From the human T2T-CHM13v2.0 reference genome, Homo sapiens, in the NCBI RefSeq assembly GCF_009914755.1, contig NC_060937.1: DNA of 64,000 bases; one strand, given 5' to 3'. The translations under genes and the position numbers were made by a program. Positions 7,736-40,356 of the stretch are shown here, piece by piece. Numbering within the stretch: the first letter of the stretch is position 1; the number at the start of each line of letters is the position of its first letter. Under the pieces are notes generated by a model, which saw nothing but the letters and a program-made list of their open reading frames with translations, did no database searches and was not told the DNA's origin.

Positions 7736-7810
7736 GCAAGATTACAGAGAGGTCACTTATTACTCAAACAAGGAAAACTTGATGAAGCAGAAGATGATTT
7801 TAAAAAAGTG
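7736..7810 (+). CDS. DNAJC3: DNAJC3 coding exon 4, 75 nt
   Basis: tttctag|GCA...GTG|gtaagt; ARLQRGHLLLKQGKLDEAEDDFKKV; phase 0/0, in frame with exon 3. Confidence 0.97.
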
Positions 7811-30500: not shown

Positions 30501-31091
30501 AAAATATGACTGTCTTATTTCTATAAAAACTTCCTGGTTCTCACTAACTTGTTTTATGTAATAATTTGTAATCTGTGAATTCTTCCCTTTTATCTCAAAT
30601 CCAACATACTTTCCTAAGTGCAGTTTAAACTCATCTATTCTTGGTCTTCATTGTTTACTATATCTTTGCTATTCATGCTTTGGGCTTACGTGGATAATAT
30701 TTAAATTTAGGCAGTGTTCCATGAGATCCAAATATAATTGGATCAATTATATTTAATTCAATTTAAATAGTCCTTTCATATAACTGTATTTTTTTACTTT
30801 GACAGAGCAGAAACTTGCATTTTGATTGTGAGAAACCATATATTAGGTAAATAATGGTGCCAATTGCAATTTAATTTTTAAATCAAGTATAAACCTTTGG
30901 TAAGACATTTGATAAACTCTCCTTTGGTAGTCTGTGGATCTGTATCAATTGTAAACAATTCAAACTAACATAATTATATCTATTATACATCAAAATAACT
31001 GTCATCATTTTTTTTCCATCTTTAATTCTTTAATGCAGAAAGGATCATTATATTGTTTCAGGATAGCTAACTCAGAAATAACCAAAGTTTC

Positions 31092-31400
31092 GGCTGGGTG
31101 AGGTGGCTCACGCCTGTAATCCCAGCACTTTGGGAGGTCAAGGTGGGCAGATCACCTGAGCTCAGGAGTTTGAGACCAGCCTGGCCAACATGGCGAAACC
31201 CTGTCTCCACTAAAAACACAAAAATTAGCTGGGCATGTTGGCACACGCCTGTAATCCCAGCTACTCAGGAAGCTGAGGCAGGAGAATTGCTTGAACCTGG
31301 GAGGGAAAGGTTGCAGTGAGCTGAGATTGCACCACTATACTCCAGCCTGGGTGACAGAGCCAGACTCCGTCTCAAAACAAACAAACAAACAAACAAAAAA
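31092..31400 (+). repeat. AluS
   Basis: Alu consensus; (CAAA)n tail; CCAAAGTTT flanking repeat. Confidence 0.93.
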
Positions 31401-32325
31401 ACCCAAAGTTTTAAAAGAATACTCAAAGTATTGTGAACTGAGAATAAAGGAGAATGGTACTTTTAAGTCATAAAGTCATTTTGGTTATAATTTAAAGATA
31501 GCACTTTATGCTATGATTCAGATAACTGTTCTGGTTTTTATTGGTTCAGATTTAATACTGGATCACATACTGTAATTCACCAACTGTAAGGAGCTATCAA
31601 TTATAAGACAAATTATTTTATGTACTACTAGAAGAATAAATGCTGCCAATTAAAGCCATCTTATAACAATATTTTTAATTTATGCTTATGGAAAGAACTG
31701 TTTGAGACTTAGATATGCATTTTTGTTATATCATACTGCTGTATTCATTGCCTTCCTGCATACATTAATTTCTTGAAGATTTTAAGTGGAATTTAAACTC
31801 AGCATGTGTAGTAAGTACCAAAAATGCCCATAACACAAATGAAGTGTGCTAGACCATTCTTGTGTATGTATGATCATGCTGACTGGCTGATGGTAAGACT
31901 CCATCAATTTTTAGATTCATCCCTCTTTGAGAGAGATTCAAATGTGTTTTCTTATCAGCTTGCTGAGATATGGGCCAAAGGGAAAGAGGAAGGGGTGAGC
32001 CTAAAAGATGCCAGCAGTAAAATGGAGTAAGACTCTATTACATCAGGAAAAGAGGGAACTACTGACTTTTAGGATTCATGGCTTAAATGATAAAGTAGAG
32101 CCATTGATTGAAGAGATTGATGGGGAGGGATAGCAATGGGTTGAAGATGGGAAACAGAATTCCACTTTGTCCCTGTTACTGAGATGCCATTTAGGTGATG
32201 GATTGGAGACATCTAAATGTGAAGTAGGTAGCTGCCTGCCTGATATTGGATGTGTACATAAGAGGGTTCTGGAAACAGCTATCTGAGTCACAGCATAAAG
32301 TGCTATCTTTAAAACCCACAGTTTC

Positions 32326-32852
32326 AGCCAGGTGCAGTGGCTCACACCTGTAATCCCAGCACTTTGTGAGGCCGAGGCAGGCGGATCATCAGGTCAGGAG
32401 ATTGACACCATCCTGGCCAACAAGATGAAACTCTGTCTGTACTAAAAATACAAAAAAATTAGCTGGGCGTGGTGGCCCATGCCTGTAGTCCCAGCTACTC
32501 GGGAGGCTGAGGCAGGAGAATTGCTTGAACCTGGGAGGTGGAGGTTGTAGTGAGCCTCTAATTAGTGTTTTAAAGATAGCACTTTATGCTGTGACTCAGA
32601 TAGCTGTTTCCAGAGTCCTCTTATGTACACATCCAATATCAGGCAGGCAGCTGCCTACTTGACATTTAGATGTCTCCAATCGAACGCCTAAATGGCATCT
32701 CAGTAACAGGGACAATGTGGAATTCCGTTTCCCGTCTTCGACCCATTGCTACCCCTCTCCCATCAATCTCTTCAATAAATGGCTGCACTCCAGCCTGGTG
32801 ACAGTGCAAGACCCTGTCTCAAAAAAAAAAAAAAAAAAAAAACCCAGAAAAC
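32326..32852 (+). repeat. AluS carrying a 228-bp non-Alu insertion in the right arm
   Basis: Alu to GTGAGCC (32556), resumes CTGCACTCCAGCCTGG (32783); TSD AAA(A/C)CCCACAGTTT at 32311-32324 and 32853-32866. Confidence 0.93.
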
Positions 32853-32977
32853 AAACCCCACAGTTTACTCCTGTATAGAAGGGAGATAATCTGATCTGCC
32901 CTTTAAGGTTTTAGGTTTAGCTTAGAGTAGTGCCTGGAGCACAGAAAGCTCTCAATAAGTGTTTTCTGCTGTCATGA

Positions 32978-33368
<391 letters not shown>

Positions 33369-33521
33369 CAATTATTCAATTTGTCTGTAAACTGGAAATA
33401 GTAAAACCAAGCTCATGGGTAGTATTCTTAGTACTAGATGAAAAAGAAAAGCAAGGAAGCATCTCTAGTGGGAAGTTATCTGTAGTAAGTATACAAAATA
33501 GACTTAAGACATATATTCTAG

Positions 33522-35360: not shown

Positions 35361-36567
35361 CTACAGTGTTATCTGCCTCAGAGAGTGGTTACTACTTTAA
35401 GGTTATGGGTATTTTTAGCGTGGCAGAGAAATTTGGCCTGTCCTGTTAAGTGGTTATGTGAATTTATATTCCCACCAGCAGCATAGGGGAGTTCTAGGTA
35501 TGCCACTTCTTCAACACTTCATGTGAACAGATAGTGTGAATTTTGCTAACCTGTTAATGTGAGAAAGGCCCTTTGAGGTCTCTTGTGTATATTTCTGTTG
35601 GGTTCTAGTTATCCAACTATTTCTTTTCCATTCGTCCATCCTCCTTCTTCTTCCCTCCTGCTCTCTCCCCACCCCTAATGGATTTAGCTGCTTCTTCCTT
35701 AGTCTGTTCTTTCCGTATGGTTGTACATGCTGTGTGTTTTTCTCATACTCGTTACCTCAGGAATTTTAATATGCATGTTTAACAAGGTAATCAAAACACA
35801 AGGATTTTAGAATGCTTTAATTCAGTCGCTCACCCCCTGACTTGTATACTATTGTTTCCAAAAACAGTTCTTTATGTTTTTTTCTTTTTCTTTTTTTTGG
35901 ACATTCAAATTAGTGTTATTTTTATATAGTTCTTTTAACAAAGACTGCAGAAAGAATATGTGAAGGCAAATTCTAGAAGTCACTGCAGAATGTAATGTTG
36001 CATATACCTCAAGTGTTACATATTTTTCTATGTTATCAAATAATATCAAATGAAAATTTAAATTTTTGCTACTTATCCCAAAACATTAATTAAATAGAAT
36101 TAGAAATATTAATTTCTTGAGGAATTAGCAATTCATTGAATATATTTTATGCCAAAGTCTAATTTTATTTTGAATTCAGAGAAGTCAAAGAAAGGTTCTA
36201 TTATTCTAGGACCTTAATCACTGTAACTTTAATACAAGGGACCCAGTTTAAGTGGGCTAATATCTAATGCAATGGAAAATAAATTGAGCATCTTTTTAAA
36301 GTGTGTATTAGCACTTTTTGGAGTACTTGCTATGTGTTACATAGAGTATCTTCTTAATCTCTCAGTGACTGCCCTACAGGATATTGGTATTATTATCCCT
36401 CTTTTATTGGTAAAGAAAATGCAGAAAACACATAGGTAATTACTGATTGCCAGGAATGGGGTTTAATTAATTCATTCATCTAGACTTTATTTAAAAGCAA
36501 TATCTGTTTGGAAATATTCACAGCCCGGTCACTGAGAAATGGTAAAACTTCCACACTGTGTTACTCC

Positions 36568-40203: not shown

Positions 40204-40356
40204 CTCAAATCTAATCCAAGTGAAAATGAAGAAAAGGAAGCACAGTCTCAACTTATAAAATCTGATGAAATGCAGCGTTTGCGTTCACAAGCACTTAACG
40301 CTTTTGGAAGTGGAGATTATACTGCTGCTATAGCCTTCCTTGATAAGATTTTAGAG
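40204..40356 (+). CDS. DNAJC3: DNAJC3 coding exon 5, 153 nt
   Basis: ccttatag|CTC...GAG|gtaagt; LKSNPSENEEKEAQSQLIKSDEMQRLRSQALNAFGSGDYTAAIAFLDKILE; overlaps ORF 40270..40566. Confidence 0.97.

What the first reader, a model, noticed from the sequence alone, without database searches (positions are those of the whole stretch)
32099..32784. 218-bp inverted copy of the Alu's own upstream flank inserted inside the Alu (long hairpin)
Seen: 32567-32784 is the reverse complement of 32099-32315, the DNA immediately 5' of the Alu, ending inside its TSD. By hand it has about 13 substitutions plus 1 indel. It replaces ~12 nt of the Alu right arm, with a 10-nt filler TCTAATTAGT (palindromic core) at the left junction and CT microhomology at the right. 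The Alu tail and TSD are intact. The inserted copy has several CpGs that the flank lacks, and about five differences read A>G on the + strand. Inference: fold-back template switching or polymerase theta-type templated insertion during or after Alu integration. The DNAJC3 pre-mRNA can form a ~217-bp non-Alu stem with a ~250-nt loop, a potential ADAR/PKR/Dicer substrate inside a PKR-inhibitor gene.
Basis: partly seen in the sequence, partly recalled or inferred. Interest (0 to 1): 0.7.

Follow-up and report, generated by a model that had tools for sequence, protein, structure and literature searches.

The report
Inverted flank copy inside an Alu
An old Alu in a DNAJC3 intron really does carry a 218-base backwards copy of the unique DNA just upstream of it, most likely a copying slip by a DNA polymerase, and the result is a long RNA hairpin with no evidence yet of any function.

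Summary
Window 32567-32784 is the reverse complement of 32099-32315, with 204 of 218 columns identical (13 substitutions, 1 indel). It sits inside one Alu whose target-site duplications are intact. About 12 Alu bases are lost and there is a 10-nt filler.

The source sequence has no other copy in the T2T genome, so it is not a repeat family. The 6% divergence between the arms rules out an assembly fold-back artefact.

New here: a third 40-nt inverted copy lies at 31491-31530. It starts at almost the same source base as the large copy (32313 versus 32315, inside the first bases of the target-site duplication). In 264 kb around the site these are the only two non-Alu local inverted repeats, so they are linked.

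Best reading: a switch-and-return (fold-back or snap-back) templated insertion. Timing is unresolved. The shared start at the integration nick argues for the Alu's own integration. The low arm divergence, about one third of the Alu's age, argues for a later event.

The sense pre-mRNA can form a 217-bp stem (204 Watson-Crick, 6 G-U). No editing, small-RNA or literature evidence was found. Primate alignments would settle the timing.

The parts
32099..32315 (+). F: unique source segment, the DNA immediately 5' of the Alu, including the first 5 nt of the left TSD
   Evidence: It has no other copy in the T2T genome apart from its two local inverted copies.
32311..32324 (+). Left target-site duplication, AAAACCCACAGTTT. 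The inferred first-strand nick lies between 32310 and 32311 on the bottom strand.
   Evidence: 13/14 match to 32853-32866. The nick position is inferred from the recalled L1 endonuclease preference TTTT/AA.
32326..32556 (+). Alu, 5' part (left monomer, A-rich linker and most of the right monomer)
   Evidence: 84% to the neighbouring Alu; sub-threshold SRP/Alu-type Rfam hits; alignment to other Alus.
32557..32566 (+). 10-nt filler TCTAATTAGT with palindromic core CTAATTAG
   Evidence: No 9-mer or longer of the filler recurs nearby, except a 10-mer overlapping its end at 35908.
32567..32784 (-). Frc: 218-nt inverted copy of F inserted in the Alu right arm
   Evidence: 204/218 identical, 13 substitutions and 1 indel.
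32785..32852 (+). Alu 3' part, A22 tail (32821-32842) and a 10-nt interruption CCCAGAAAAC (32843-32852)
32853..32866 (+). Right target-site duplication, AAACCCCACAGTTT
31491..31530 (-). T3: third copy, 40 nt, the reverse complement of 32274-32313. It has the same orientation as Frc and 3 private transitions.
   Evidence: 37/40. It is not part of a repeat family. It and F/Frc are the only non-Alu local inverted repeats in 264 kb.

Best explanation
The feature is a templated inverted insertion made by one switch-and-return of a growing DNA strand.

A top-sense strand being synthesised through the Alu stopped after Alu position ~232 (window 32556) and acquired 10 untemplated or snap-back bases. 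It then used the top strand of its own upstream flank as template. That template could be its own strand folded back, or the equivalent parental strand. It copied leftwards from 32315 to 32099, then returned to the original template 12 nt further on, at a CT microhomology (32783-32784). In the four-point notation for template-switch mutations the order is 3-2-1-4. [quoted passage not shown]

The 40-nt copy at 31491-31530, which starts at source base 32313, is a by-product of the same event or the same lesion.

Shown: the sequence relationships, the junctions, the uniqueness of the source, and the linkage of the two copies. Inferred: the polymerase path.

Timing is unresolved. I put about even odds on two options. 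One is second-strand synthesis of the Alu's own integration on a resected reciprocal end. The other is a later double-strand-break repair or stalled-fork event in a hominoid ancestor.

The consequence is a 217-bp near-perfect hairpin in the DNAJC3 intron RNA. It is probably a neutral passenger and a likely nuclear ADAR substrate.
For: - The insert is an exact-register reverse complement of the adjacent flank (E 3.5e-94).
- A whole-genome search with the flank returns only itself and its two local copies, 3 of 3 candidates.
- A 24-mer of the shared end, searched with up to 3 mismatches, gives 10 other hits. None extends beyond the 24-mer: 8-22 of 56 flanking bases are identical. So there is no transposon family or better source.
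- The Alu is one element. Its TSDs match 13/14, and its two parts are collinear with a gap of 12-14 consensus columns.
- The junctions are a 10-nt filler with no local template and a 2-nt CT overlap. The class these resemble (alternative end joining / template switching) is recalled and was not tested here.
- In 264 kb (the window plus 20 neighbouring loci) the only non-Alu inverted repeats of at least 35 nt, at least 88% identity and at most 3 kb apart are F/Frc and T3/F-end. Their source endpoints are 2 nt apart.
- Literature, read as passages: the four-point model covers this geometry (PMC5453318). Template switches of 28-83 nt create hairpins in one step (PMC10710096). Experimental L1-driven insertions show 3 cases with inverted genomic DNA at the reciprocal end, 3 with extra sequence templated from near the integration site, and cleaved flap pieces of 35 and 258 nt (PMC11702581).
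Against: - At 217 nt, with a 241-251-nt jump, the event is several times longer than the short-range template switches described (28-83 nt). It is also much longer than typical polymerase-theta snap-back inserts (that size is recalled).
- There is no microhomology at the left junction.
- The model does not by itself explain why both copies start in the A4C at the TSD start.
- It does not explain how the 40-nt copy came to lie 743 nt upstream.
- It does not explain why the flank has 0 CpG and the insert 5. Seven of 8 transitions are A/T in the flank against G/C in the insert (sign test p 0.07).
- The two timing clues conflict. The endpoint at the nick favours integration. Non-CpG arm divergence of 8/207, against 12-15/221-227 for the Alu, gives an age ratio of 0.29-0.44 with P 0.0035-0.057 for equal age.
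- No outgroup genome could be consulted.
Confidence: 0.8

Rival explanations
1. RNA-templated version. A reverse transcriptase (L1 ORF2p during the Alu's integration, or polymerase theta at a later break) extended the top-strand DNA end on the sense DNAJC3 pre-mRNA. It started at the A4 tract at 32311-32314, which would be near the 3' end of a transcript blocked at the endonuclease nick. Both inverted copies would then be cDNAs of the host transcript.
For: - The insert as read on the + strand has the sequence a cDNA of the sense pre-mRNA would have.
- Both copies start at an A tract 3-5 nt beyond the inferred nick, and both cross the nick. That fits an uncut template such as RNA.
- Template switching of ORF2p between RNAs, and ADAR-edited inserts, are documented in PMC11702581 (passages).
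Against: - No feature distinguishes RNA from DNA as template. The intact top DNA strand also crosses the nick.
- Editing of the sense transcript would give A>G in flank orientation. Only 2 of 8 transitions are of that type.
- The primer ends (…TTAGT, …TATAA) are not T-rich, as would be expected for priming on an A tract. That expectation is recalled.
Confidence: 0.1
2. The flank, the insert and the 40-nt copy are pieces of an interspersed repeat, for example terminal inverted repeats of a DNA transposon spanning 31491-32313. On this view the Alu insert came from another family member.
For: - A 40-nt inverted pair (31491-31530 / 32274-32313) brackets 743 nt, and TTAA can be read at both outer ends.
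- The interior holds two old interspersed repeats, with 11 and 8 hits elsewhere at 70-89% identity.
Against: - The 217-nt flank has no other genomic match.
- The 10 other hits to the terminal 24-mer, each with 3 mismatches, do not extend.
- The two interior repeats never co-occur at the other loci.
- The insert matches the adjacent flank over its whole 217 nt and runs into the Alu's TSD.
Confidence: 0.02
3. The hairpin is a selected functional element. It would be a long intronic dsRNA that recruits ADAR, Dicer or PKR and feeds back on expression of DNAJC3, a PKR inhibitor.
For: - The predicted stem is exceptional: MFE -483 kcal/mol, z -52.
- On the sense RNA it has 204 Watson-Crick and 6 G-U pairs with a 94-bp uninterrupted helix. 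The antisense RNA has 2 G-U pairs and 11 mismatches.
- It is the best-paired inverted repeat in the window, 93% against 74-86% for the 7 Alu pairs.
Against: - It is deep in a ~32-kb intron, so it is removed in the nucleus.
- The arms have drifted 6% with no compensatory pattern that can be tested.
- The 6:2 G-U asymmetry is not significant.
- Highly paired predicted dsRNAs are not unique: 31,017 of 5,134,754 are more than 96% paired (PMC11838218, section 10).
- No Rfam family reaches threshold.
- No paper links DNAJC3 to editing or an inverted repeat at this site.
Confidence: 0.05
4. Assembly artefact (a chimeric fold-back read incorporated in the T2T assembly).
For: Only one assembly could be examined here.
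Against: - Artefactual fold-backs give identical arms. These arms differ at 13 substitutions and 1 indel, include a 10-nt filler, and replace 12 nt of the Alu.
- A separate diverged 40-nt copy exists.
Confidence: 0.01

Closest known systems
Template-switch mutations under the four-point model (Loytynoja & Goldman 2017, PMC5453318), including those that create RNA hairpins and new miRNAs (PMC10710096)
   Same: A nearby segment is copied in reverse complement by one switch and one return. The point order 3-2-1-4 creates a new inverted repeat and so a one-step hairpin. A small replacement (12 nt) occurs at the target.
   Different: The copied fragment is 217 nt and the jump is ~240 nt, against 28-83 nt in the passages read. 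There is a 10-nt filler at the first switch. A second, shorter copy from the same start point lies 743 nt on the other side.
Local target-site rearrangements of L1-mediated insertions (PMC11702581): inversions at the reciprocal end, insertions templated from DNA near the integration site, cleaved flaps, twin priming
   Same: The source is the reciprocal-end flank of a TPRT insertion and reaches the TSD. The piece sizes (40 and 218 nt) resemble the reported flap pieces (35 and 258 nt). TSDs are preserved.
   Different: Here the inverted flank lies inside the retroelement, 230 nt from the 5' junction, and the Alu is collinear on both sides. The reported cases sit at the junction with the reciprocal end. 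Their supplementary figures S9 and S10 were not seen. Arm divergence suggests the insert may be younger than the Alu.
Polymerase-theta end joining with snap-back (templated extension in cis) inserts (PMC4912351, only the search listing and abstract start seen)
   Same: A small deletion, a 2-nt microhomology at one junction, a filler with a palindromic core at the other, and an insert templated in cis in inverted orientation.
   Different: The insert is far longer than the usual few to tens of nucleotides (recalled). The enzyme cannot be inferred from the sequence.
Inverted Alu pairs as intronic dsRNA / ADAR substrates
   Same: A long intramolecular duplex in a pre-mRNA intron.
   Different: The arms are unique, non-repeat sequence and pair at 94% (97% with G-U). 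The seven Alu pairs in this window pair at 74-86%. Only the loop is Alu.

Membership tests
Template-switch mutation (four-point model) | The new sequence is the reverse complement of a nearby segment | tested here: met
   204/218 identical in reverse complement. The source is 251 nt away.
Template-switch mutation (four-point model) | One switch-and-return explains the whole change | tested here: inconclusive
   The fragments L->32556, rc(32315->32099) and 32785-> explain everything except the 10-nt filler. The 40-nt copy needs a second switch.
Template-switch mutation (four-point model) | Short range and short length (tens of bases) | tested here: not met
   217 nt copied, against 28-83 nt in PMC10710096. 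The authors of PMC5453318 state that the model is restricted to short-range events.
Template-switch mutation (four-point model) | The ancestral state without the change is seen in an outgroup | not testable with these tools
   No primate genomes or other human assemblies are held.
TPRT-associated target-site rearrangement | Next to a retroelement with a TSD, an A tail and an endonuclease-type site | tested here: met
   TSD 13/14, A22 tail, and TTTT/AAAG on the bottom strand at 32310|32311. The endonuclease motif is recalled.
TPRT-associated target-site rearrangement | The extra sequence is templated from genomic DNA at the integration site | tested here: met
   The source ends 5 nt inside the TSD, and the 40-nt copy ends 3 nt inside it.
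TPRT-associated target-site rearrangement | The extra sequence lies at the junction between the insertion and the reciprocal end | tested here: not met
   It lies inside the Alu, between consensus positions ~232 and ~245.
TPRT-associated target-site rearrangement | Same age as the retroelement | tested here: inconclusive
   Age ratio 0.29-0.44, P 0.0035-0.057 for equal age. My hand estimate, not a tool result: allowing for source-gene variants weakens this to about 0.1.
DNA transposon with terminal inverted repeats | Multiple genomic copies sharing the termini | tested here: not met
   no extended match elsewhere.
ADAR-edited intronic dsRNA | A long duplex in a transcribed RNA | tested here: met
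   Prediction only. 217-bp stem, z -52. It lies in the DNAJC3 intron according to the supplied annotation.
ADAR-edited intronic dsRNA | Observed A-to-I editing clusters | not testable with these tools
   No RNA-seq or editing database is held. Four literature searches found nothing.

The most novel reading that the evidence does not exclude
The 218-nt and 40-nt inverted copies both start in the first bases of the target-site duplication. On this reading they are fossils of the Alu's own integration intermediate. Second-strand synthesis (or ORF2p itself) left the cDNA, copied the resected reciprocal end or the nick-blocked nascent DNAJC3 transcript, and returned. The result would be a germline-fixed 'internal flank capture', an outcome not described for Alu. 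It would also have created, in one step, a near-perfect 217-bp dsRNA in the gene for a PKR inhibitor.
Probability: 0.4. Interest if true: 0.55.

Novelty: new member of a known kind. Interest (0 to 1): 0.35.

Why it matters
This is an unusually clean and long natural example of a one-step inverted templated insertion. Both junctions, the filler, the microhomology and the source are all still readable.

If primate genomes date it to the Alu's integration, it would show three things for a germline Alu: that the reciprocal end can be resected, that it can be copied backwards, and that synthesis can then resume on the cDNA. That would extend what has so far been seen only at insertion junctions in L1 over-expression experiments.

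If it is younger, it extends the size range of template-switch mutations that build hairpins.

Either way it made a non-repeat dsRNA that is far better paired than the surrounding Alu pairs. That dsRNA is a convenient natural substrate for studying ADAR editing. The link to PKR biology is only an association by gene name at present.

Tried and rejected
- Repeat family or transposon origin: rejected.
- Local template for the filler: none found.
- Other local duplications around the site, with Alus masked: none beyond the three copies.
- Alu at 31093-31400 as a paralogue or parent of this Alu, prompted by their similar TSDs. The bodies are 84% identical, like any Alu pair, and share 0 private non-CpG variants. 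The TSD likeness is left unexplained.
- Known RNA families: 15 Rfam matches at E<=1, all below gathering score and all Alu/SRP-type or Alu-derived miRNA models.
- ADAR signature in the A>G differences: poor fit. 5' neighbours are C, C, C, T, A, read by eye. The preference is recalled.
- APOBEC/AID motifs at the C/T differences: 1 of 5 in a TC context, by eye. Rejected.
- Gene-conversion tracts: the longest identical block (48 nt) is about what 14 differences in 218 columns give by chance (my estimate). Clustering of differences is not significant (p 0.15).
- First Alu consensus from 12-16 window Alus: too crude, since it recovered only 12-16 CpG pairs. Replaced by 63 Alus from 264 kb.
- A first attempt to collect Alus with the joined Alu as query found only one.
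- Literature on DNAJC3 with editing, dsRNA or inverted repeats: searches found 0 papers. Searches (7 papers; 4 papers) found none that looked relevant from the listing.
- The sperm de novo insertion preprint has no mention of inverted or templated structures.

Full report
**What is there**

Reading the sequence and two repeat scans show one Alu on the + strand. Its parts are:

- Body from about 32326.
- A22 tail at 32821-32842.
- A 10-nt interruption, CCCAGAAAAC.
- Target-site duplications (TSDs) AAAACCCACAGTTT (32311-32324) and AAACCCCACAGTTT (32853-32866), 13 of 14 identical.

The Alu is interrupted after 32556 by a 10-nt filler (TCTAATTAGT, core palindrome CTAATTAG). A 218-nt segment follows at 32567-32784. 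The Alu then resumes at 32785.

A local alignment shows that the 218-nt segment is the reverse complement of 32099-32315. 204 of 218 columns are identical, with 13 substitutions and one extra base. The source runs up to and 5 nt into the left TSD.

Alignment to 16 other Alus of the window shows that 14 majority-consensus columns are missing at the interruption. That is 12 if the CT shared by the insert's end and the Alu is counted as Alu.

**Not chance, not an artefact, not a repeat family**

- The pair has a BLAST E of 3.5e-94 within the local region.
- A search of the whole T2T genome with the 217-nt flank returned 3 matches of 3 candidates: itself, the inverted copy (94%), and a 40-nt piece.
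- The search tool warns that it scores only the best candidates. So I also searched a 24-mer from the shared end with up to 3 mismatches. That gave 13 hits: the 3 local copies plus 10 others, each with exactly 3 mismatches. The reversed control gave 0.
- The flanks of those 10 hits are unrelated: 8-22 of 56 bases identical on one side and 4-9 of 20 on the other.
- The stretch between 31420 and 32098 does contain two old interspersed repeats, at window ~31564-31711 (11 hits elsewhere) and ~31930-32042 (8 hits), at 70-89% identity. They never co-occur at the other loci.

So the source segment is locus-specific. An assembly fold-back chimera would give identical arms, and these differ by 6%.

**A third copy**

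Window 31491-31530 is a 40-nt reverse complement of 32274-32313, matching 37 of 40. It has the same orientation as the large insert and lies 743 nt upstream of its source.

The flank and the large insert are identical over these 40 nt. The third copy carries 3 private transitions.

Its source endpoint is 32313. The large insert's is 32315. Both lie in the A4C that opens the TSD, 3 and 5 nt beyond the position where the recalled L1 endonuclease preference (TTTT/AA on the bottom strand) places the first-strand nick (32310|32311).

In 264 kb (the window plus 20 neighbouring 10-kb loci) I looked for inverted repeats of at least 35 nt, at least 88% identity and at most 3 kb apart. There were four. 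Two are Alu-Alu pairs and the other two are these. Two such rare events with source ends 2 nt apart cannot be independent. They share an event or a lesion.

**Mechanism**

The top strand of the insert has the sequence of the bottom strand of the flank, and it crosses the nick position. So its template was an uncut strand of top-strand sense: the top DNA strand, or the sense pre-mRNA.

The simplest path is a growing top-sense strand that:

1. leaves its template after 32556;
2. gains 10 bases (the palindromic core suggests a 4-nt snap-back, and no local template exists);
3. lands on the top strand at 32315 and copies leftwards to 32099;
4. returns 12 nt downstream of its departure point at a CT overlap.

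This is the 3-2-1-4 case of the four-point template-switch model (PMC5453318, passages). That case creates an inverted repeat in one step, as shown for 28-83-nt events that founded miRNA hairpins (PMC10710096, passages). It is equally the geometry of snap-back synthesis at a resected double-strand break (polymerase-theta literature, of which only the listing and abstract start of PMC4912351 were seen).

What is unusual is the size: 217 nt copied across a ~240-nt jump.

**Timing**

*For coupling to the Alu's own integration:*

- Both copies start at the TSD/nick.
- The Alu tail looks like nested partial copies of the TSD start, which hints at a messy integration.
- Experimental L1-driven insertions show the needed ingredients. 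These are 5' resection of the reciprocal end, 3 insertions with inverted genomic DNA at that end, 3 with sequence templated from near the integration site, and cleaved flap pieces of 35 and 258 nt (PMC11702581, passages; its supplementary figures were not seen).
- In that scenario second-strand synthesis, primed from the reciprocal end, would fold back on its own resected upstream strand and then return to the cDNA.

*Against coupling:*

- Those reported cases lie at the junction, not inside the element.
- The clock disagrees. With a consensus from 25-63 neighbouring Alus (22-26 CpG pairs recovered), this Alu differs at 12-15 of 221-227 non-CpG sites, or 5.4-6.6%.
- The two arms differ at only 8 of 207 non-CpG columns, or 3.9% for two lineages.
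- That gives an age ratio of 0.29-0.44, and P 0.0035-0.057 for equal age.
- My hand estimate, not a tool result: allowing a few source-gene variants weakens this to about 0.1.
- I see no evidence of gene-conversion tracts.

I therefore leave the timing at about even odds. The later-event version predicts an insert of hominoid age, about one third to one half of the Alu's age.

**Unexplained substitution pattern**

- The flank has 0 CpG and the insert has 5.
- Seven of 8 transitions are A/T in the flank against G/C in the insert (p 0.07).
- All five CpG differences lie within 32142-32200.
- Five of the 13 substitutions sit in two tight groups, although clustering overall is not significant (p 0.15).

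Simple CpG decay fits neither an old nor a young event well, by my own rough calculation. ADAR editing is a poor fit, with 5' C at three of the five A>G sites. APOBEC-type contexts are absent. An outgroup is needed.

**RNA consequence**

- The region lies in the DNAJC3 intron between the exons at 7736-7810 and 40204-40356 (supplied annotation), on the sense strand.
- Folding 32080-32800 gives -483 kcal/mol. The mean of 20 shuffles is -222, so z is -52.
- The sense-RNA stem has 204 Watson-Crick pairs, 6 G-U pairs, 7 mismatches and 1 bulge. The longest uninterrupted helix is 94 bp.
- The antisense RNA would have 2 G-U pairs and 11 mismatches.
- Of the 8 inverted repeats of at least 100 nt within 3 kb in the window, this is the only non-Alu one. 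It is also the best paired, at 93% against 74-86% (Alu identity judged from the coordinates).
- For scale, a genome-wide prediction lists 31,017 of 5,134,754 dsRNAs as more than 96% paired, and 2,018 as also longer than 300 bp (PMC11838218, section 10). So this hairpin is uncommon but not unique, and it is below the length favoured by MDA5.
- Being intronic, it should meet nuclear ADAR rather than cytoplasmic PKR or MDA5 (inference).
- No Rfam family reaches threshold.
- Four full-text searches combining DNAJC3 with editing, dsRNA, ADAR or inverted repeat gave 0, 0, 7 and 4 papers. None appeared relevant from the listing.
- Function remains unsupported.

**Verdict**

This is a real and well-preserved templated inverted insertion of the Alu's own 5' flank, with a previously unnoticed small sibling copy from the same start point. 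It is a new and unusually long member of a known class of mutation. Its timing relative to Alu integration is the one question of wider interest, and primate alignments can decide it directly.

Noticed in passing
window 31398-31411 vs 32311-32324: The right TSD of the neighbouring Alu (31093-31400; AAAACCCAAAGTTT) is 13/14 identical to the left TSD of the interrupted Alu (AAAACCCACAGTTT). The two left junctions also share the following C. The Alu bodies are only 84% identical and share no private variants. This is chance, a shared target preference, or an unknown link.
   Followed up: partly
window 32821-32866: The Alu tail reads A22-CCCAG-AAAAC-AAACCCCACAGTTT. The 10-nt interruption looks like nested partial copies of the start of the TSD, which may indicate slippage or re-priming at integration.
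   Followed up: no
window 32216-32247 and 32635-32666: The copied segment contains a 32-nt quasi-palindrome centred on CAGCTG. Two of the 13 arm differences (32221 and 32229) fall in it. The insert's version is the better palindrome (81%), against about 69% for the flank by my hand count.
   Followed up: partly
window 31479-31488 and 31529-31541: The sequences on either side of the 40-nt copy are weakly alike (TTTTGGTTAT / TTCTGGTTTTTAT). This might be a short duplication made when the copy was inserted. Its significance was not tested.
   Followed up: no
window 31564-31711 and 31930-32042: Two old interspersed repeat fragments, with 11 and 8 matches elsewhere in the genome at 70-89% identity. 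Their families could not be named because no repeat library is available.
   Followed up: partly
window 32445-32555 vs 33138-33248; 31089-31385 vs 33074-33371: The loop of the hairpin (the Alu 5' part) and the upstream Alu can each pair with the inverted Alu at 33072-33373 (81-86%). So competing Alu-Alu duplexes surround the non-Alu stem.
   Followed up: no
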